Virus record (IMG/VR): IMGVR_UViG_3300018481_000009 | Location: 1-49,882 of that record | Length of the DNA: 49,882 nucleotides | Origin: a virus | Reading direction: 5' to 3' (one strand) | Part shown: piece after piece, positions 5,046 through 38,759 of the stretch | Layout: each line of letters starts with the position of its first letter | How positions within the stretch are numbered: the stretch's first letter is position 1 | Position numbers and translations under genes: made by a program | Notes under the pieces: model-generated | Database searches by the model: none | What the model saw: the letters and a program-made list of their open reading frames with translations, nothing else | Told to the model about the DNA's origin: nothing

Positions 5046-7473
5046 CTTCCGGGATAAGATTCGCAACCCCGACTGCACGTTGTGTCCTCTCAACGAGTCG
5101 GCAGAACACGTGTGTCTGATGGGTAGCGGACCCCGGAAGGCGCGGGTCATGGTGATAGGGGAGGCGCCCGGGGCCAGGGAGGACGATTCTCATAAGGCGT
5201 TTGTGGGACGTTCTGGCAAGCTCCTGGACTCCGTGTTGTCGCAGGTAGGACTTCCCCGGGATGAGGTCTACGTGACCAACGTGGCTAAATGCCGGCCTCC
5301 AGAGAACCGGACTCCCAAACGCGGTGAAATCAAGACCTGTGTGGAGGAGTACCTCATCCCCGAGTTCGAGGCCGTCAAGCCCGAGTTCGTGCTCCTCCTC
5401 GGCAATGCTCCACTGATCGGAGTCATCGGCAAGAGTGGCATCACCAAACACAACGGGACGGTCTGGAAAGTCGAGGTGGCTGATGGGCATTGGGCCAGGG
5501 TCTTTGCAACGGTTCACCCTGCAGCTGTACTTCGCAACCCGCGCTTTACGCAGGTTTTCGCAGCTGATATCACGCGTTTCGGAAACCTGGTCAACAATCG
5601 GGACGTCACCCCCAAGACCGACGTGCGACTCGTTACGAAAAAGCGGCATATGCTATGGCTATATGACCAACTCATGGAAGCCACCGAGATTAGCTGGGAC
5701 GTTGAAACGGATACCGAACAGAAGCCGGGGTTTGTACGGACCGCAGGTCAGGATTGGCACGGTGATGAATCATGGATCTGTTCCATCGCCTTCTCATGGG
5801 ATGAAGGTGCATCCGCCGCGGTACCGCTCATGCACCCCGAAACTCCGTGGGCCAACCCGAAGGCGGTCCTAGAAGCACTCAGAAGGCCACTGACCCGAGG
5901 ACGAGAGGTCAAGTACATCGCGCACAACGGGAAGTTCGACGCGAAGTGGCTCCACTCCAAAGGCATCCCAATCCGTCAAGACTTCGACACAATGCTCGCG
6001 GCTCACATGGTCGATGAGAACCAGTTCAAGGGGCTCAAGCCGCTGAGCAAGGTCGAGCTAGGAGCAGCTGCTTACGGAGTGGGTGAGGACATCAAGCATC
6101 CCTCCAAGGCTCCGATACGCAAGCTCTGTATCTACAACGGCAAGGACACCGACTACACGCTCCGATTGTATCACGTGTTCCGCGAGCATTTGAAGCAGGA
6201 CCCGCGCAGCGCGATGGTATTCCTCAAGCTCATGATGCCAGCCTCTAATGCCCTTGTGGATATCGAGCGCACCGGGGTCTGGGTGGACCCAGAACGGTGG
6301 GAAGAACGGTACATCCAAGCACAGGAGAATCGCGACAAGGTCCACGACTACATCGATCAGTTCTGGACCGAGGACGCCAAGATCAATCTGAACAGTCCTC
6401 CACAGGTTGGGAGGCTCTTGTTCCGCGATCTGGAGCTACCGATTCTCATGAAGACCAAGACCGGGGCGGCTAGTACGGCTGAAGCGGTCCTCCTGAGGCT
6501 CGAGGATCAGCATAAGGTGGCCAGAGCCATCATGATCTACAGAAAGTGGGCGAAGTATGTCAACACGTATCTTGGTCCTTGGAAGTACGAATGGATGGAT
6601 AGTCGAGGCAGAATCCACTCCCAGTACAAGCTCTTTGGAACGGTTACTGGACGGCTATCTGGTGAGGGAGGAATTCAGCAGGTGCCTCGAGATCCTTTCA
6701 TCCGATCCGTTATTGGAGCGCCTCCTGGATGGAGCTTCGTTCAAGGTGACTTTTCACAGGTCGAGCTACGGGTCGCATTCTGGCAAGCCGACGAGAGGAA
6801 CGGACTCCGGCACTACATGAAGGGTGAGGACGTGCACATGATCCGTGCACTCCGTATGACAGGCAAGGTCGACCCGAAGAAGGTCACCAAGGAAGAACGC
6901 AAGCGGGCTAAGCCAGTCTCATTCGGTTACGTCTACGGGATGGGAGCGGCCAAGTTCGTCAGCTACGCCTTCGACAACTACGGGCTCAAAGTCACGGAGG
7001 ATGAGGCGCAACGTGATCGTAATCAATTCTTCAGTGATTACCCGGCTCTTCGTCCATGGCACGATCGTCAGCGTAAACTTGCCCGCCGATATGGACGGGT
7101 TGTATCGCCTATTGGTCGTGTACGACACCTACCTGATATCACGTCTGATGATGAGAAGGTACGTCAGGAGGCGGAGCGCCAGGCGATCAACTCGCCAATC
7201 CAATCTTTCGCCTCTGACGCCATGCTCATCGCTCTCATCCGACTGCAACGAATGCTTCCCCCTTCAGAAGCCAAGATCGTGGCAACTGTACACGACGCCA
7301 TCCTCTTCGAGGTCAGGGACGACAAGCTCGACAAGTGGCTTCCCGTGATCAAGGAAGTGATGGAAGATATGGACTACATCAAGCGACTGTTCGGAACGGA
7401 GGTCGGAGTGCCTATCGTAGCAGACATCGAGGTAGGGCGACATTGGGGTGAGGGCAAGCCATGGGCGGCGTGA
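5038..7473 (+). CDS. family-4 uracil-DNA glycosylase domain fused to a family A DNA polymerase (3'-5' exo + pol)
   Basis: N-terminal CTLC, GEAPG..E, FVGRSG and HPAAVLRN (UDG4 motifs); then DVETD (ExoI), DFSQVELRV (motif A), RKRAKPVSFGYVYG (motif B) and VHDAILFE (motif C). Confidence 0.85.
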   Translation: MPDFRDKIRNPDCTLCPLNESAEHVCLMGSGPRKARVMVIGEAPGAREDDSHKAFVGRSGKLLDSVLSQVGLPRDEVYVTNVAKCRPPENRTPKRGEIKTCVEEYLIPEFEAVKPEFVLLLGNAPLIGVIGKSGITKHNGTVWKVEVADGHWARVFATVHPAAVLRNPRFTQVFAADITRFGNLVNNRDVTPKTDVRLVTKKRHMLWLYDQLMEATEISWDVETDTEQKPGFVRTAGQDWHGDESWICSIAFSWDEGASAAVPLMHPETPWANPKAVLEALRRPLTRGREVKYIAHNGKFDAKWLHSKGIPIRQDFDTMLAAHMVDENQFKGLKPLSKVELGAAAYGVGEDIKHPSKAPIRKLCIYNGKDTDYTLRLYHVFREHLKQDPRSAMVFLKLMMPASNALVDIERTGVWVDPERWEERYIQAQENRDKVHDYIDQFWTEDAKINLNSPPQVGRLLFRDLELPILMKTKTGAASTAEAVLLRLEDQHKVARAIMIYRKWAKYVNTYLGPWKYEWMDSRGRIHSQYKLFGTVTGRLSGEGGIQQVPRDPFIRSVIGAPPGWSFVQGDFSQVELRVAFWQADERNGLRHYMKGEDVHMIRALRMTGKVDPKKVTKEERKRAKPVSFGYVYGMGAAKFVSYAFDNYGLKVTEDEAQRDRNQFFSDYPALRPWHDRQRKLARRYGRVVSPIGRVRHLPDITSDDEKVRQEAERQAINSPIQSFASDAMLIALIRLQRMLPPSEAKIVATVHDAILFEVRDDKLDKWLPVIKEVMEDMDYIKRLFGTEVGVPIVADIEVGRHWGEGKPWAA

Positions 7474-25303: not shown

Positions 25304-25995
25304 TTATTTCACGGGGCGGAGCATGGGGTGGATGGATTCCATATCGACTGGATCGCTGTAGCCGGGACGGAACTTCACCAGGTCCTTGGGTTGGTGGTAG
25401 GCGTAGCTCATGACAGCGCCCTGGTTGAAGAGGTCCATGCTACTTTGCCACTCGTATAGCTCGACCAGGTCCAGGAGTCGTGGGATCGTTAGGCCGCGCT
25501 CGGTGTCGTAGTTGGGGGAGTCGTCCCAGAACTCGTCGAGTCCGATTCCCCAGTAGGTCCAGGCGACACGGATGAGAGGGGCGTCGGGCGAACCCCGGAA
25601 GCTTCCGCCACGTTCCCCGCCGCCGTGATCAACTTGACGAGTTTTCCCAACCGCCCGGCTCCCGACACGTTCAGGGACGTCTCGAACGCGGCGATGATCT
25701 CGTCCGTGGTGGGAGACGGGTCGTTGTCCTCTTGGTACTGGTCGCGGTCACCTGCCTGGTAGGCGTCCCACGCTTCCTGCGTGCGGAACCCCTCCCACTC
25801 GTACTCGGGCATGTCCTTGAGTGCCGGAATGAGGACGCAGAGGATGCGGTACGACTGGTGACCGTAATCCCCGCCCATGATCTTGCCGAAGTCGTCGGCA
25901 TTGAGGTGGTGGCGAAGGCGAGCGTGCTTCTGCGGGACAACCGGAAAAACACGCTCCCCCAGCCTGACCGATGCGGTGCTGCCGTTGTTGGCCAT
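25304..25995 (-). CDS. tail assembly chaperone G-T fusion made by -1 frameshift at 25642-25648
   Basis: the -1 frame is open from the slip site to a TAA at 25304-25306 that abuts the tape measure ATG; it encodes WTYWGIGLDEFWDDSPNYDTERG... Confidence 0.7.
25489..25995 (-). CDS. tail assembly chaperone (G-like, zero-frame product)
   Basis: AGGAGAG RBS before ATG 25995; lies between the major tail and tape measure genes. Confidence 0.7.
   Translation of the reverse strand: MANNGSTASVRLGERVFPVVPQKHARLRHHLNADDFGKIMGGDYGHQSYRILCVLIPALKDMPEYEWEGFRTQEAWDAYQAGDRDQYQEDNDPSPTTDEIIAAFETSLNVSGAGRLGKLVKLITAAGNVAEASGVRPTPLSSVSPGPTGESDSTSSGTTPPTTTPSAA
25642..25648 (-). other. -1 programmed frameshift slippery heptamer G_GGA_AAA
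   Basis: zero-frame TTG GGA AAA CTC; X XXY YYZ pattern as in lambda G/GT. Confidence 0.7.
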
Positions 25996-26017
25996 GATGG
26001 TTGCTCTCCTGTTACTT

Positions 26018-35412: not shown

Positions 35413-35736
35413 ATGCCCGACCAGAAGACTACCGCTCCGAAGGCCTACTCCGGCCAGGACCTCGCCAACCTGCTCGACATCGAGGGGATCAAGCTCCGCC
35501 GGTACATCCGGGAGGACGGCACCCGGGTCGGCCGAGGCCGCACCTACGCCTTCTCGCAGGAGGAGGCCCGCACCATCCTCGAGGGCTTCGTCTCCCGCAC
35601 CGAGAAGACCCCGCTCGACCCCGAGGCGGAGGGCTACGACGAGGAGAAGGCCACCCACCTCAAGGACCAGGTCGAGCAGCTCCTCAACCCGCCCGCCGAG
35701 GAGACCACCGAGGAGGAGGCCACCGAGGAGGCCTAA
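35413..35736 (+). CDS. hypothetical protein with LR..(I/L)RE.G..VGRG..Y.F domain (paralog A)
   Basis: AAGGAGAAG RBS; domain shared with 39162-39356 and the C-terminus of 45145-46110. Confidence 0.7.
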   Translation: MPDQKTTAPKAYSGQDLANLLDIEGIKLRRYIREDGTRVGRGRTYAFSQEEARTILEGFVSRTEKTPLDPEAEGYDEEKATHLKDQVEQLLNPPAEETTEEEATEEA

Positions 35737-35749
35737 CCGCCGCCGGGAG

Positions 35750-35767
35750 GGGGGGCTTCGGCCCCCC
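35750..35767 (+). terminator. hairpin GGGGGGC-TTCG-GCCCCCC after the first early gene
   Basis: perfect 7-bp GC stem with a TTCG tetraloop, 14 nt after the stop; weak T-tract. Confidence 0.5.
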
Positions 35768-35894
35768 GCTTCCGACCGATTCCAGGCGATTCTACCTCCG
35801 CTCGGGGTCGGTCGAAAGCTCACCCACCGCATAGGGAAACATATCACCGTCCCCGTCACCGGCGCAACTCAAATCCGACACAGGAGGCCCCACC

Positions 35895-35975
35895 ATGGCC
35901 ACAATTACCACCATCAAGAAGCCCACCATCATCGAGGACTTCGGCAACGGCCACATCATCATCTGGTTGATCTAA
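35895..35975 (+). CDS. 26-aa ORF (MATITTIKKPTIIEDFGNGHIIIWLI)
   Basis: CAGGAGG RBS 7 nt upstream; 22 of 25 third positions are G/C. Confidence 0.6.
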   Translation: MATITTIKKPTIIEDFGNGHIIIWLI

Positions 35976-35981
35976 CCGCCA

Positions 35982-36023
35982 GGCTCGCAGGCGAAGTCGC
36001 CGGTTCGAATCCGGCCGAGCCAC
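35982..36023 (+). ncRNA. tRNA-like minihelix 1 (acceptor-like stem + T-arm; no D or anticodon arm)
   Basis: GGCTCG / 11-nt linker / GCCGG-TTCGAAT-CCGGC / CGAGCC. Confidence 0.6.
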
Positions 36024-36053
36024 TCCATCCAACAACCCACAGGAAGGGTCAAC

Positions 36054-36314
36054 ATCACCGATAAGATCATCAGCATCCGCACCGAGGACGGCGTCATCGT
36101 CCATCCCGGTGAACGGGTCTACAACTACTACGACATGAAGCCCGGCATCATCGTCGAGGACCGGGCACCGACCGTCTACAACGACGGGGCGGACCTCAAC
36201 CAGGACATCTGGTTCGACTTCAAGCACGACAACGGGTCGACATCGATCCTCAACGGCCAGCGGATCTGCACCATCGAGTTCGCCAAGAGCCGAGGGTTCA
36301 AGGACGCCGAGTAG
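36054..36314 (+). CDS. hypothetical protein; start unresolved (ATC 36054 after AGGAAGGG, or continuation from the upstream ORF; first ATG is 36135)
   Basis: strong GC3 bias from 36054 onward; no ATG/GTG/TTG in frame between 35976 and 36134. Confidence 0.5.
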   Translation: MTDKIISIRTEDGVIVHPGERVYNYYDMKPGIIVEDRAPTVYNDGADLNQDIWFDFKHDNGSTSILNGQRICTIEFAKSRGFKDAE

Positions 36315-36517
36315 TGGAAGTCCAATCATCCGGAATCTGTCCGGGTTGTGGGGAACGGAGGTTGGTCACTCGCAAGGGGGCCAACCACGTTCTTCACCTC
36401 ATCCTCACCGTCCTGACCTTCGGGTTGTGGGCCGTCATCTGGTTCATCGTCGCAGCCGCAGCCGAATACGGTAAGTGGCGGTGCCAGGTTTGTGGCATAC
36501 AGGTCAAACCATCATGA
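36314..36517 (+). CDS. zinc-ribbon membrane protein
   Basis: CPGC...CQVC flanking the TM segment LHLILTVLTFGLWAVIWFIVAAAA. Confidence 0.6.
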   Translation: MEVQSSGICPGCGERRLVTRKGANHVLHLILTVLTFGLWAVIWFIVAAAAEYGKWRCQVCGIQVKPS

Positions 36518-36672
36518 TTTACCTGGTCATCAGCCACAGTCCGATGGGATCGGTGTTGGGAGTCAAGTCTTTCACATCGACCGAGTTCGACGACTACGAG
36601 CAGCAGAAAGGGGACACAGTTGTTGTCCTCGATGGCAGCCGAGTTGTCCAACACTGGACCACATACGCATGA
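36514..36672 (+). CDS. 52-aa hypothetical protein
   Basis: ATGA overlaps at both ends. Confidence 0.5.
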   Translation: MIYLVISHSPMGSVLGVKSFTSTEFDDYEQQKGDTVVVLDGSRVVQHWTTYA

Positions 36673-37227: not shown

Positions 37228-37270
37228 GGGCTGACAGGCAGATCATCGGGTTCGAGTCCCGACAGTCCAC
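37228..37270 (+). ncRNA. tRNA-like minihelix 2
   Basis: GGGCTG / 12-nt linker / TCGGG-TTCGAGT-CCCGA / CAGTCC (one G.U pair). Confidence 0.55.
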
Positions 37271-37378
37271 TTACATCGCAAACCAAATAACCATTCAGGT
37301 GTTGGTCATATCCTTATCGCAGTGTAAGGGTGCGATAGTAGACTTCCAGTAGGAAGATTCAGGAACCACGCGAAGGAG

Positions 37379-37762
37379 GTGATTACCATCAATCAATACG
37401 AATTCCTAGTCGAAATGGACGGCATGATCGAGTCCACAGAAGAGTTCATTCGAGACGACGAGCTCACCAAGGACAACGATCCGGAAGGCCGACTCAAGGA
37501 TCTCGCAGCACTCAACCACGTCCGGAATCTCTGGACAGAGGTCTTCAAGACCGAACCCACAGATACTCCAGCCGAGTTGCTCGTCCAAGGTCTGGGCGAT
37601 GCCTTCAGCTACACAGGAGACAACAACCGAGACCTCATCTCGGATTCCAGTTTCCCAATCGCCAGCACCGTCGAGGAACTCCAGGTCGAGTTCGCTTACC
37701 AGTTCCTCATCACGTACATCACACACAACGAAGAGCTAATCAACAACAACCTCAAGGACTAA
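37379..37762 (+). CDS. acidic hypothetical protein
   Basis: GTG just after GAAGGAGG. Confidence 0.6.
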   Translation: MITINQYEFLVEMDGMIESTEEFIRDDELTKDNDPEGRLKDLAALNHVRNLWTEVFKTEPTDTPAELLVQGLGDAFSYTGDNNRDLISDSSFPIASTVEELQVEFAYQFLITYITHNEELINNNLKD

Positions 37763-37840
37763 CACATTCCGCTAAACACACAGATCATTCGGAACGGGGA
37801 GCCACTCAAGCTTCACTGGTCCGATTTCCACGTAGCCGCT

Positions 37841-38107
37841 ATGGTATGCGCAGCGGCCTACGACAGTGGAGAGGGGCCGTTCGTCGGAGAACAGAAGGCG
37901 GAGGCCGAGGGATACCCAGAACAGCCACAGGGAATCTCACCAAGGAACTCCTTCGAGCTGGCAGCCTACCACGTCATCGCGGCTACGCCCCTCAATTCCG
38001 GAAGCTACACTTTGAAGGGAGAGCACAAGTTCGTCGACATCACCGACGGCGAGATACTCCACCTTCTCCCGGGCGACATTCTCGACATGTCCCGGAGTTA
38101 CAAATAG
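37841..38107 (+). CDS. hypothetical protein (start uncertain)
   Basis: no RBS before ATG 37841; the frame is open back to the previous stop. Confidence 0.5.
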   Translation: MVCAAAYDSGEGPFVGEQKAEAEGYPEQPQGISPRNSFELAAYHVIAATPLNSGSYTLKGEHKFVDITDGEILHLLPGDILDMSRSYK

Positions 38108-38359: not shown

Positions 38360-38403
38360 GCCGGGGGTTGGTGAAGTGGAGGGTTCGACTCCCTCGCCCG
38401 GCA
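38360..38403 (+). ncRNA. tRNA-like minihelix 3
   Basis: GCCGGG / 13-nt linker / GAGGG-TTCGACT-CCCTC / (G)CCCGGC + A. Confidence 0.6.
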
Positions 38404-38435
38404 TAGTTCCCGTCAACCACAGGAAGGAATCAGCC

Positions 38436-38759
38436 ATCATCCACATCGAGTTGTCAATCGAGCCTCATTACAGCGAGGTCCGGTACAAGCCGTGGGATCG
38501 CGAGAACGAGCCACATCCGTCGTTCGAGCTACAGCCCGGCAGTCCTCCACCTCACGTGATTCTCAAACGAGAGTACGAAACGTGGGACGAGGCTCAGCAC
38601 TTCGTCATGGACATCCTGGACCTCCGGCCCACCAAGGACTTCGAGTCCGTCTTCGACAACCCGGAGAACGAGTACGTCCAGGTCGAGATCGAGTTGATGG
38701 ACCAGACCGAGACGCTATACACCAAAGCCTGTCTTTCAATCGAAGGGAACGAGCAGTGA
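38436..38759 (+). CDS. hypothetical protein; start unresolved (ATC 38436 after AGGAAGGA; alternative GTG 38376 inside the minihelix)
   Basis: ORF open from 38352; the SD-like sequence lies 7 nt upstream of ATC. Confidence 0.5.
   Translation: MIHIELSIEPHYSEVRYKPWDRENEPHPSFELQPGSPPPHVILKREYETWDEAQHFVMDILDLRPTKDFESVFDNPENEYVQVEIELMDQTETLYTKACLSIEGNEQ

What the first reader, a model, noticed from the sequence alone, without database searches (positions are those of the whole stretch)
35895..36314. el1 junction: stop, minihelix, SD, then ATC; the downstream ORF has no canonical start and is in frame with a 26-codon ORF
A well-signalled 26-codon ORF (CAGGAGG RBS, strong GC3 bias) ends ...TGG TTG ATC TAA at 35973-35975. 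Minihelix el1 begins 6 nt later. The same frame then stays open through el1 into a clearly coding stretch: from 36054, 23 of 27 third positions before the first ATG are G/C. That frame has no ATG, GTG or TTG between 35976 and 36134. A strong SD-like AGGAAGGG (36041-36048) lies 5 nt upstream of ATC 36054. The last sense codon before the stop is also ATC. A matched take-off and landing codon, a stop right after take-off, a structured gap and an SD before the landing site is the arrangement of T4 gene 60 translational bypassing, here with an 84-nt gap. Alternatives are AUC initiation, or TAA readthrough stimulated by a structure 6 nt downstream.
Basis: partly seen in the sequence, partly recalled or inferred. 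Interest (0 to 1): 0.65.

Follow-up and report, generated by a model that had tools for sequence, protein, structure and literature searches.

The report
AUC-started phage gene behind tRNA-like minihelix
The junction is not a ribosome-hopping site but an ordinary gene boundary in an uncultured soil phage. What is unusual is that the downstream gene, like two or three of its neighbours, starts at AUC or AUU instead of AUG, and that it sits just behind a tRNA-derived RNA minihelix.

Summary
The preferred reading, T4 gene 60-style bypassing, is not supported.

- **Independent gene.** All 28 distinct relatives of the downstream protein are free-standing small proteins. Each has its own Shine-Dalgarno (SD) sequence and an ATG, GTG or TTG start 15-24 codons before the VYNYYDM motif. 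ATC 36054 lies 21 codons before that motif, 5 nt after the SD.
- **No readthrough.** A variant strain carries a net +1 indel between the TAA and the ATC, so readthrough would be out of frame there.
- **The ATG 36135 product is unlikely.** The 27 codons before it are conserved, under purifying selection, and form strands of a confidently predicted beta-barrel.
- **AUC initiation recurs.** ATC 38436 aligns exactly with the start codon of 4 of 4 homologs. ATT 37766 aligns with ATG in 3 of 3 homologs. ATC 37388 is probable.
- **The minihelix is a family.** el1 is one of three tRNA-derived minihelices in this operon (6-bp acceptor stem, linker containing a GG, canonical T arm). Related phages carry two more. 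They covary and are invariant between strains. They are probably RNA-processing signals, which is untested.

Best reading: an independent cistron initiated at AUC under SD direction.

The parts
35745..35772 (+). G+C-rich hairpin (GGGGGGC-TTCG-GCCCCCC) after the upstream gene 35413-35736. It is a probable terminator or operon boundary.
   Evidence: Read from the sequence. It is followed by a stretch that varies between strains: 10 substitutions in 35837-35874 in strain X4.
35880..35887 (+). Shine-Dalgarno sequence ACAGGAGG of the 26-codon ORF, 7 nt before the ATG.
35895..35975 (+). 26-codon ORF encoding MATITTIKKPTIIEDFGNGHIIIWLI, ending in TAA. It is Ile- and Thr-rich and resembles a leader peptide. 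Whether it is translated is unproven.
   Evidence: GC3 24/26; 8 Ile in 25 residues, P about 4e-5. In strain X4 it carries only two changes, both ATC to GTC (I to V), against 10 changes in the 38 nt upstream.
35982..36022 (+). el1, a tRNA-derived minihelix. Acceptor stem 35982-87 pairs with 36016-21; linker 35988-98 (contains a GG); T arm 35999-36015 (GCCGG-TTCGAAT-CCGGC); unpaired A at 36022.
   Evidence: Found by the structure scanner and by folding. It has no changes in strain X4 although the flanks vary. Its acceptor and T arms match those of a real tRNA-Arg gene.
36023..36040 (+). Non-coding spacer between el1 and the SD.
   Evidence: Strain X4 has a 2-nt insertion, a 1-nt deletion and two substitutions here, a net +1.
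36041..36048 (+). Shine-Dalgarno sequence AGGAAGGG of the downstream gene, 5 nt before ATC 36054.
   Evidence: It is unchanged in strain X4. The same CCACAGGAAGG motif precedes ATC 38436.
36054..36314 (+). Gene g3, an 86-residue conserved small beta-barrel protein. The start codon is ATC 36054; the stop is TAG 36312-14.
   Evidence: Homolog N-termini. AlphaFold2 model with pLDDT 88, in which residues 8-27 form barrel strands. Purifying selection in 36054-36134.
37228..37269 (+). el2, the second minihelix (GGGCTG/CAGTCC acceptor stem with G3:U70 and A73; T arm TCGGG-TTCGAGT-CCCGA).
37388..37762 (+). Gene g8, with a probable ATC start after GAAGGAGGTGAT (37372-37383). The GTG at 37379 lies inside the SD.
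   Evidence: g7 has the same SD-to-start spacing (GAAGGAGGTGAT-cagt-TTG). In strain X5 the ATG at 37415 is ATC. No homolog informs the N-terminus, so this start remains ambiguous.
37766..38107 (+). Gene g9, with an ATT start 3 nt after the TAA of g8.
   Evidence: Our IPLNTQ aligns to MPLNTQ/MPLNSQ, starting with ATG, in L012, L013 and L014. The first canonical start is 25 codons further on and has no SD.
38360..38403 (+). el3, the third minihelix (GCCGGG/CCCGGC; T arm GAGGG-TTCGACT-CCCTC).
   Evidence: It is unchanged in strain X2, while the spacer has a 1-nt deletion at 38409.
38436..38759 (+). Gene g11, with an ATC start 7 nt after the SD AGGAAGGA (38421-38428).
   Evidence: Four of four homologs (P0042 V; P0043, P0044 and P0045 M) begin at the residue aligned with this ATC. 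L001 has ATG ATC CAC ATC GAG where the window has ATC ATC CAC ATC GAG.

Best explanation
The region 35895-36314 is an intercistronic junction, not a recoding site. It holds three separate parts.

1. **A 26-codon ORF.** It is Ile- and Thr-rich and has a good SD. It terminates normally at TAA.

2. **A tRNA-derived minihelix, el1.** It has an acceptor stem and a T arm, joined by an 11-nt linker that contains a GG. It is one of three such elements that divide this early operon. The inferred role is as a processing or stability signal on the polycistronic transcript: RNase P cleavage at its 5' edge, possibly a second cut 3' of the unpaired A, and/or a protective 5' structure for the downstream mRNA. 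This role is not shown.

3. **An independent gene, 36054-36314.** It encodes an 86-residue small beta-barrel protein. Ribosomes bind the SD AGGAAGGG and initiate at AUC 36054. By analogy with measured AUC initiation in E. coli, initiator tRNA would supply an N-terminal Met, and output would be a few percent of an AUG start and sensitive to initiation factor IF3.

The same SD-plus-AUY design is used at ATC 38436, at ATT 37766 and probably at ATC 37388.

**Shown:** the N-terminal 27 codons are coding and conserved; the gene is independent; canonical starts occupy the same position in relatives; the SD, the ATC and the minihelix are conserved between strains; the spacer is non-coding.

**Inferred:** actual initiation at AUC, its efficiency, and every function proposed for the minihelix and the small ORF.
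For: **The gene is independent**
- 37 metagenomic homologs of 71-98 residues begin 0-10 residues before 'IRTEDG'.
- At DNA level, 28 distinct relatives all have ATG, GTG or TTG with an SD 15-24 codons before VYNYYDM. ATC 36054 lies 21 codons before it.

**The region upstream of ATG 36135 is coding**
- The frame has no canonical start, and ATG 36135 has no SD.
- In the AlphaFold2 model (pLDDT 88.4), residues 8-27 are barrel strands.
- Changes within 36054-36161 are V to I plus synonymous substitutions in L005 and in strain X4.

**Conservation between strains**
- The ATC and the SD are invariant in six assemblies and in the roughly 95%-identical strain X4.
- The adjacent spacer in X4 carries +2 and -1 indels.

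**AUY starts recur**
- ATC 38436 aligns with the start codon of 4 of 4 homologs.
- ATT 37766 aligns with ATG in 3 homologs.
- g8 shares g7's SD-to-start spacing.
- The relative L001 has a 70-codon ORF preceded by an SD and ATC, with no ATG, GTG or TTG anywhere in frame.

**The minihelix family is real**
- Five distinct elements were found, all on the gene strand and intergenic, against 0-0.05 expected in shuffles.
- 55 of 55 stem positions form standard pairs, and 9 of 11 pair positions covary.
- All T loops read TTCRANT.

**AUC can initiate**
- In E. coli it gives about 1-2% of AUG, with an N-terminal Met (bioRxiv 10.1101/063800).
- IF3 represses non-canonical starts (PMC2268962).
Against: - There is no expression data. 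No RNA run holds this sequence, and the host is unknown, so initiation at AUC has not been observed.
- AUC is a poor start codon in E. coli, so the product may be very scarce.
- The start of g8 is ambiguous.
- The minihelices fall below every Rfam gathering score and are not called by ARAGORN.
- No 5' or 3' RNA ends are available to test processing.
- In relatives, a minihelix can precede an ATG gene (L021, L055), and an ATC gene can lack a minihelix (L001). Any link between the two features is therefore not obligatory.
Confidence: 0.78

Rival explanations
1. Termination-reinitiation. Ribosomes that finish the 26-codon ORF stay on the mRNA, pass the minihelix, are caught by the SD and restart at AUC 36054. 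Expression of g3 would then depend on translation of the small ORF. This is a variant of AUC initiation rather than a true alternative.
For: The small ORF has a strong SD and is conserved between strains. The ATT start of g9 lies 3 nt after the stop of g8, the classic coupling geometry. The literature treats reinitiation, and its sensitivity to IF3, as a distinct mode (PMC2268962).
Against: 78 nt and a stable 11-bp minihelix lie between the stop and the ATC. Each AUC gene has its own well-placed SD. Relatives have the same gene without an equivalent small ORF.
Confidence: 0.1
2. Programmed translational bypassing of the T4 gene 60 type. Peptidyl-tRNA-Ile takes off at ATC 35970, skips 81 nt and lands at ATC 36054, fusing the 26-residue peptide to the downstream protein.
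For: The take-off and landing codons match, a stop follows take-off, the gap is structured, and an SD-like sequence lies 5 nt before the landing codon.
Against: - None of 28 relatives has an N-terminal extension; all start independently at the 'landing' region.
- The take-off codon is not inside the stem-loop. The minihelix begins 6 nt after the stop, and it is a tRNA mimic that also occurs at other junctions, including before ATG genes.
- The other AUY genes have no matched take-off codon. The upstream genes end in GAG, and ATC 38436 aligns to a start codon.
- ATC is 4.5% of codons, and the small ORF is 32% Ile.
Confidence: 0.02
3. TAA readthrough stimulated by the downstream structure. This would yield a 139-residue fusion: 26 residues, one inserted at the stop, 26 encoded by the minihelix and spacer, and the 86 of g3.
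For: The frame is open from 35976 to 36314. The same single in-frame stop arrangement is seen at the g8/g9 and g10/g11 junctions.
Against: - Strain X4 has a net +1 indel between the TAA and the ATC. Strain X2 has a -1 indel between TAG 38349 and ATC 38436. The in-frame relation is therefore not conserved and the spacer is non-coding.
- In relatives the minihelix contains in-frame stops (L021).
- No homolog carries the extension.
Confidence: 0.02
4. Only the 59-residue product from ATG 36135 is made, as gene callers annotate it. The upstream in-frame stretch would be untranslated.
For: ATG 36135 is the first canonical start. Prodigal-type callers chose it in all assemblies.
Against: - No SD precedes ATG 36135.
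- The M at that position is an internal invariant residue of the family, in the motif YNYYDM.
- The 27 upstream codons are conserved at protein level and have GC3 of 23/27.
- Between strains they vary only by a V to I change and a synonymous change.
- They form core strands of the predicted barrel.
Confidence: 0.04
5. Recently inactivated genes. ATG to ATC or ATT mutations killed the starts of several dispensable early genes, which are now decaying.
For: Relatives have ATG at the same positions. These are small accessory genes of unknown function. A variant strain lacks one neighbouring gene (X5 skips 36514-36670).
Against: - The ORFs are intact in all strains, with no frameshifts or stops, and show conservative or synonymous variation.
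- The SD and the ATC are conserved while the neighbouring spacer accumulates indels.
- The changes are specifically to AUY near-cognates, three to four times in one operon and again in the distinct phage L001. That argues for selection rather than decay.
Confidence: 0.04

Closest known systems
AUU-initiated genes infC and pcnB of E. coli (SD-directed initiation at a near-cognate AUH codon, discriminated against by IF3)
   Same: A near-cognate AUH codon sits at the proper distance from an SD, with no canonical alternative. The expected output is low and IF3-sensitive, and initiator tRNA would place Met at the N-terminus.
   Different: Here the codon is mostly AUC. It occurs three to four times within 2.4 kb of one phage operon, and in two or three cases directly after a tRNA-like minihelix. 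There is no evidence of an autoregulatory logic such as that of infC.
T4 gene 60 translational bypassing
   Same: Identical codons flank the gap, a stop follows the first of them, the gap contains RNA structure, and an SD-like element precedes the second codon.
   Different: Homologs are not uninterrupted fusions but independent genes. The take-off codon is not inside the hairpin. The structure is a tRNA mimic that recurs at unrelated junctions.
t-elements of plant mitochondria and mascRNA of MALAT1 (tRNA-like structures inside longer transcripts, cut by RNase P and RNase Z)
   Same: An acceptor-like stem stacks on a T arm carrying the GGTTCRANYCC motif, embedded between coding regions of a polycistronic RNA (PMC1920247). 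el2 gives a weak match to the mascRNA model (17.4 bits, E = 4.7).
   Different: The context is bacterial and phage. The elements are much smaller, with no D stem and no anticodon arm. Cleavage is untested, and they lie below the Rfam thresholds.
tRNA acceptor-T-arm minihelices and the tRNA-like domain of tmRNA
   Same: An 11-12 bp coaxial acceptor and T helix with a canonical T loop, and a D-loop-like GG in the linker. el2 has G3:U70 plus A73, the alanine identity set shared with tmRNA.
   Different: There is no mRNA-like domain and no encoded CCA end. The element lies within an mRNA rather than being a free RNA. The G3:U70 pair is in only one of five elements.
Leader peptides of thr/ilv-type attenuators
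   Same: The 26-residue peptide is short, well signalled and strongly enriched in Ile and Thr (TITTI...GNG...IIIWLI). It lies just upstream of a structured RNA and an operon.
   Different: No alternative terminator and antiterminator pairing was identified. The downstream structure is a tRNA mimic without a U tract. The peptide is conserved only within this phage lineage.

Membership tests
Programmed translational bypassing (T4 gene 60 type) | Matched take-off and landing codons, with a stop directly after take-off | tested here: met
   ATC 35970, TAA 35973 and ATC 36054. The match has low information content, because ATC is 4.5% of codons and the small ORF is 32% Ile.
Programmed translational bypassing (T4 gene 60 type) | Take-off codon lies within the stem-loop that forms at the take-off site | tested here: not met
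   The minihelix starts at 35982, 6 nt after the stop. ATC 35970 is unpaired in the fold.
Programmed translational bypassing (T4 gene 60 type) | The two coding segments form one protein: relatives encode an uninterrupted version | tested here: not met
   28 distinct relatives start independently with an SD and ATG, GTG or TTG at the 'landing' region. None has the 26-residue segment.
Programmed translational bypassing (T4 gene 60 type) | Nascent-peptide signal in the upstream segment | not testable with these tools
   No comparative or experimental handle is available.
SD-directed initiation at a near-cognate AUH codon (infC/pcnB type) | AUH codon 4-9 nt downstream of an SD, with no canonical start available for the conserved N-terminus | tested here: met
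   AGGAAGGG, 5 nt, then ATC. There is no ATG, GTG or TTG in 35976-36134.
SD-directed initiation at a near-cognate AUH codon (infC/pcnB type) | The codon occupies the position of canonical start codons in orthologs | tested here: met
   For g3 the position is within the range of 28 relatives. It is exact for ATC 38436 (4 of 4 homologs) and for ATT 37766 (3 of 3 homologs).
SD-directed initiation at a near-cognate AUH codon (infC/pcnB type) | Conservation of the AUH codon and SD among strains while the flanks vary | tested here: met
SD-directed initiation at a near-cognate AUH codon (infC/pcnB type) | Protein demonstrably begins there, with fMet | not testable with these tools
   There are no RNA or proteome data.
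tRNA-like processing elements (t-element / mascRNA type) | Acceptor-like stem stacked on a T arm with the GTTCRANYC loop | tested here: met
   Five distinct elements, 55 of 55 standard pairs, 9 of 11 positions covarying, T loops TTCRANT.
tRNA-like processing elements (t-element / mascRNA type) | RNA ends produced by RNase P or RNase Z at the borders of the element | not testable with these tools
   No transcript data.
tRNA-like processing elements (t-element / mascRNA type) | Match to a curated model (Rfam tRNA or mascRNA) | tested here: not met
   No hit at gathering score. The best hit is mascRNA at 17.4 bits against a threshold of 42.5.
Canonical tRNA gene | Cloverleaf with D arm and anticodon arm | tested here: not met
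   ARAGORN finds 0 genes in the window. Only 11-15 nt lie between the acceptor stem and the T arm.
Stop-codon readthrough extension | The downstream frame relation and the extension are conserved | tested here: not met
   Net +1 indel in strain X4 and -1 indel in strain X2 in the spacers. In L021 the minihelix contains an in-frame stop.

The most novel reading that the evidence does not exclude
The tRNA-like minihelix and the AUC start may be functionally coupled. In this phage all three minihelices are followed by the first cistron of a block, and that cistron starts, or probably starts, with AUC. Given 4 AUY starts among about 12 genes, this has a chance of about 0.02.

A cis tRNA elbow placed about 31 nt upstream could do one of three things:
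- license initiation at AUC, for example by engaging IF3 or a ribosomal tRNA site;
- make translation of these cistrons depend on RNase P processing;
- be released, receive a CCA end and be aminoacylated (el2 carries the Ala identity set), giving a small phage RNA with a role of its own.
Probability: 0.1. Interest if true: 0.85.

Novelty: new variant of a known kind. Interest (0 to 1): 0.5.

Why it matters
**Annotation.** Gene callers truncated or missed several genes because only ATG, GTG and TTG are allowed as starts. In this phage g3 is called as 59 residues instead of 86, and g9 and g11 are shortened or wrongly extended. In a relative, a whole 70-codon ORF is missed.

**Biology.** Confirmed AUC and AUU starts are very rare in bacteria. 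Only infC and pcnB are cited for E. coli. A cluster of three to four such starts in one early operon, supported by position-exact alignment to ATG in relatives, suggests deliberate low-level or IF3-dependent expression of early phage genes.

**RNA.** Minimal tRNA-derived minihelices that divide a phage operon would extend tRNA-like mRNA processing signals, known from organelles and from MALAT1, to bacteriophages. They would also provide compact natural RNase P or tRNA-enzyme substrates for testing.

Tried and rejected
- **Cultured relatives.** Megablast and tblastn of the region and of the protein against INPHARED phages gave no match. The terminase is only about 44% identical to that of Gordonia phages, so no cultured relative or host is available.
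- **Protein families.** Pfam and PHROGs gave nothing significant for g3, g8, g11 or the 26-residue peptide.
- **RNA families.** Rfam at gathering score and ARAGORN gave nothing in the window.
- **Transcript data.** No RNA-seq runs hold the sequence, so transcript ends could not be examined.
- **Covariance model.** None was built for the minihelix, because MAFFT mis-registered the 5' acceptor strands. A structure scanner written for the purpose, with shuffle controls, was used instead. Relaxing it mostly added noise: 12 hits against 4.5 expected.
- **g8 homologs.** The search returned only one relative, covering the C-terminus, so that start stays ambiguous.
- **Fold search.** The g3 model gave only weak Tudor, SH3 and KOW-like resemblances (E above 0.1). 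No function is assigned.
- **Genome scan.** It is informative about tRNA ancestry, not about the host.
- **Promoters and terminators.** The consensus scan found nothing above the shuffle level.
- **In-frame stops.** The pattern of a single in-frame stop at three junctions was considered as evidence for readthrough. It was rejected because of non-triplet indels in variant strains.
Full report
**The observation.**
- A 26-codon ORF (35895-35975, MATITTIKKPTIIEDFGNGHIIIWLI) follows ACAGGAGG plus 7 nt. Its GC3 is 24/26, and it ends ATC TAA.
- Six nt later, a minihelix starts at 35982.
- The same frame is open to 36314, with no ATG, GTG or TTG before ATG 36135.
- AGGAAGGG (36041-48) lies 5 nt before ATC 36054.
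- 23 of the next 27 third positions are G or C.
- The '84 nt' is the start-to-start distance between the two ATC codons. The stretch that would be skipped is 81 nt.

Six independent assemblies from three data sources are identical here, apart from two coding-compatible substitutions in one of them. The missing start codon is therefore not a sequencing artefact.

**The downstream ORF.** A search with the 86-residue translation from ATC 36054 found 37 metagenomic relatives of 71-98 residues, covering 87-99% of the query. In the alignment they begin 0-10 residues before the conserved 'IRTEDG'. The Met encoded by ATG 36135 is an invariant internal residue of the motif YNYYDM.

I checked this at DNA level in loci from IMG/VR and JGI metagenomes. 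All 28 distinct relatives have an ATG, GTG or TTG with a recognisable SD 15-24 codons before VYNYYDM. ATC 36054 lies 21 codons before it. Only the window's own lineage lacks a canonical start.

An AlphaFold2 model built on the alignment is confident (mean pLDDT 88.4, pTM 0.79). It shows a small beta-barrel with a C-terminal helix. Residues 8-27, encoded upstream of ATG 36135, contribute core strands. Fold search against the PDB gave only weak Tudor, SH3 and KOW-like resemblances, so the function remains unknown.

Between strains, the stretch 36054-36161 varies by one V to I change and by synonymous changes. It is a live coding sequence.

**Bypassing and readthrough.**
- No relative carries an N-terminal segment resembling the 26-residue peptide.
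- The closest distinct relative (L001, 65% identity) starts with a GTG that overlaps the TGA of an unrelated upstream ORF.
- The take-off codon is not within the structure.

Readthrough is excluded as a conserved mechanism by strain variation.
- Contigs of a roughly 95%-identical strain (run X4) have a 2-nt insertion after 36023 and a 1-nt deletion at 36034. This gives a net +1 between the TAA and the ATC.
- Another strain (X2) has a 1-nt deletion at 38409, between TAG 38349 and ATC 38436.

The spacers are thus non-coding. The single in-frame stop arrangement, seen in the window at three junctions (26-codon ORF/g3, g8/g9, g10/g11), is not conserved.

**AUC initiation is supported and recurrent.** In strain X4 the SD and ATC 36054 are unchanged. 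Meanwhile the 12-nt stretch just upstream (36023-36034) takes two substitutions and two indels. The same design appears elsewhere in the operon.
- *g11.* CCACAGGAAGGA plus 7 nt plus ATC 38436 precedes an ORF whose first canonical codon (TTG 38451) is too far from the SD. All four homologs start (M, M, M, V) at the residue aligned with that ATC. In L001 the DNA reads ATG ATC CAC ATC GAG where the window reads ATC ATC CAC ATC GAG.
- *g9.* Our 'IPLNTQ', with ATT at 37766 three nt after the TAA of g8, aligns with 'MPLNTQ/MPLNSQ' (ATG) in three relatives. The first canonical start is 25 codons downstream and has no SD.
- *g8.* GAAGGAGGTGAT-tacc-ATC (37388) has the same geometry as g7's GAAGGAGGTGAT-cagt-TTG. 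The annotated GTG 37379 lies inside the SD. The next ATG (37415) is ATC in strain X5. No homolog informs the N-terminus, so this case is only probable.
- *L001.* This distinct phage contains an uncalled 70-codon ORF (5801-6003 or 5804-6003, starting at one of two adjacent ATC codons). It follows CCCACAGGAGGG, starts ATC ATC, has no ATG, GTG or TTG anywhere in frame, and is stop/start-overlapped (GTGA) with the next gene.

The structural genes on the minus strand use ordinary SD plus ATG or GTG. The AUY starts are therefore specific to the early operon.

From the literature, AUC, AUU, AUA and CUG initiate at about 1-2% of AUG in E. coli with Met at the N-terminus, and only infC and pcnB are cited there as confirmed non-canonical starts (bioRxiv 10.1101/063800). 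IF3 represses initiation at such codons (PMC2268962). The likely consequence is low, IF3-sensitive expression. That is inferred, not shown.

**The minihelix.** el1 (35982-36022) consists of:
- a 6-bp acceptor-like stem (GGCTCG/CGAGCC);
- an 11-nt linker;
- a T arm (GCCGG-TTCGAAT-CCGGC);
- an unpaired A.

Two more such elements lie in the same operon on the same strand: el2 at 37228-37269 and el3 at 38360-38403. A structure scanner found exactly these three in the window, plus two further elements in related phages (L001 7883-7927; L019/L021 3330-3375). All are intergenic and on the gene strand, against 0-0.05 hits in shuffled sequence.

Across the five elements:
- all 55 stem positions are standard pairs;
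- 9 of 11 pair positions carry at least two pair types;
- every T loop is TTCRANT, closed by a G-C pair;
- every linker contains a GG, as a D loop would.

el1 and el3 are invariant in variant strains whose flanks vary. ARAGORN and Rfam do not call any of them. The best sub-threshold match on the sense strand is mascRNA, for el2.

The T arm and acceptor strands of el1 are identical to those of genuine tRNA genes, for example a tRNA-Arg(CCT) in an Actinomycetota MAG. The element therefore looks like a tRNA that has lost its D and anticodon arms. A relative (L055 8111-8181) has a fuller but aberrant tRNA-like element in the same kind of position.

The elements begin 6-11 nt after a stop codon in four of five cases. 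They are followed after 14-18 nt by an SD in el1, el3 and L021.

By analogy with plant mitochondrial t-elements (PMC1920247), with mascRNA and with RNase P minihelix substrates, the best guess is a processing or stability signal that splits the polycistronic early transcript. My confidence for that specific role is about 0.4-0.5. Nothing here tests it.

**Coupling between minihelix and AUC.** Within this genome, each minihelix is followed by a cistron that starts, or probably starts, with AUC. However, L021 and L055 have a tRNA-like element followed by SD plus ATG, and the ATC ORF in L001 follows a plain hairpin. A functional link is possible but not required by the data. It is stated as the novel case (probability about 0.1).

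**The 26-codon ORF.**
- It is well signalled.
- It is conserved between strains: two I to V changes, against 10 changes in the 38 nt upstream.
- It is strongly Ile-rich (8 of 25 residues, P about 4e-5) and also Thr-rich, which recalls thr/ilv leader peptides.
- I found no alternative pairing that would make an attenuator, and no relatives outside this lineage. Its role is open.

**Verdict.** The junction is a normal cistron boundary, with one uncommon feature and one probably new one. The uncommon feature is SD-directed AUC initiation. It is the best-supported explanation (0.78, or about 0.88 if the reinitiation variant is included), and it recurs three to four times in the operon. The probably new feature is a family of minimal tRNA-derived minihelices between phage genes. 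Bypassing and readthrough are each at about 0.02.

Noticed in passing
window 37228-37269 and 38360-38403: Two further tRNA-like minihelices (el2, el3) lie on the same strand in the same operon, 11 and 8 nt after stop codons. el2 has G3:U70 plus A73, the alanine and tmRNA identity set.
   Followed up: yes
window 37766-38107: Gene g9 appears to start at ATT 37766, 3 nt after the TAA of g8. The ATT aligns with the ATG of three homologs. Gene callers shorten the gene by 25 codons.
   Followed up: yes
window 38436-38759 and 37388-37762: Two more ATC starts. ATC 38436 is position-homologous to the start codon in 4 of 4 homologs. ATC 37388 is probable, on the basis of SD geometry.
   Followed up: yes
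L001 5801-6003: In a related phage contig there is an uncalled ORF of about 70 codons. It follows CCCACAGGAGGG, starts ATC ATC, has no ATG, GTG or TTG in frame, and its stop overlaps the GTG of the next gene.
   Followed up: partly
window 35895-35975: The 26-residue peptide is extremely Ile- and Thr-rich (TITTI...GNG...IIIWLI) and resembles thr/ilv attenuator leader peptides. No alternative RNA pairing was found.
   Followed up: partly
window 25304-26004 (minus strand): Two overlapping coding frames (about 26004-25489 and 25747-25304) lie directly upstream of the 872-residue tape-measure gene (25303-22685). This looks like the usual programmed frameshift of tail assembly chaperones.
   Followed up: no
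window 36514-36670: A variant strain (run X5) has a contig that skips 155 nt here, precisely removing the 52-codon gene 36514-36672. That gene is therefore dispensable or mobile between strains.
   Followed up: no
L055 8111-8181: ARAGORN calls a 'tRNA-???' with a 4-nt anticodon. It is an aberrant but fuller tRNA-like element in a related phage, followed after about 10 nt by an SD and then ATG. It may be an evolutionary intermediate toward the minihelices.
   Followed up: partly
window junctions 35973, 37760 and 38349: At three junctions the upstream ORF and the AUY-started gene are in the same frame, separated by a single stop (chance about 0.04). Indels in variant strains break this relation at two of the junctions, so it is probably coincidence.
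   Followed up: yes
window and L001 ribosome-binding sites (for example 35876-35887, 36034-36048, 38414-38428): Ribosome-binding sites in this phage group share an extended context, CC(C)ACAGGA(A)GG, longer than a plain SD. el1 and the L021 element also share the 3' tail ACTCCA.
   Followed up: no
L076 4320-7550: An Actinomycetota MAG contig carries 15 tRNA genes within 3.3 kb. One of them, tRNA-Arg(CCT), has acceptor and T arms identical to those of el1.
   Followed up: no
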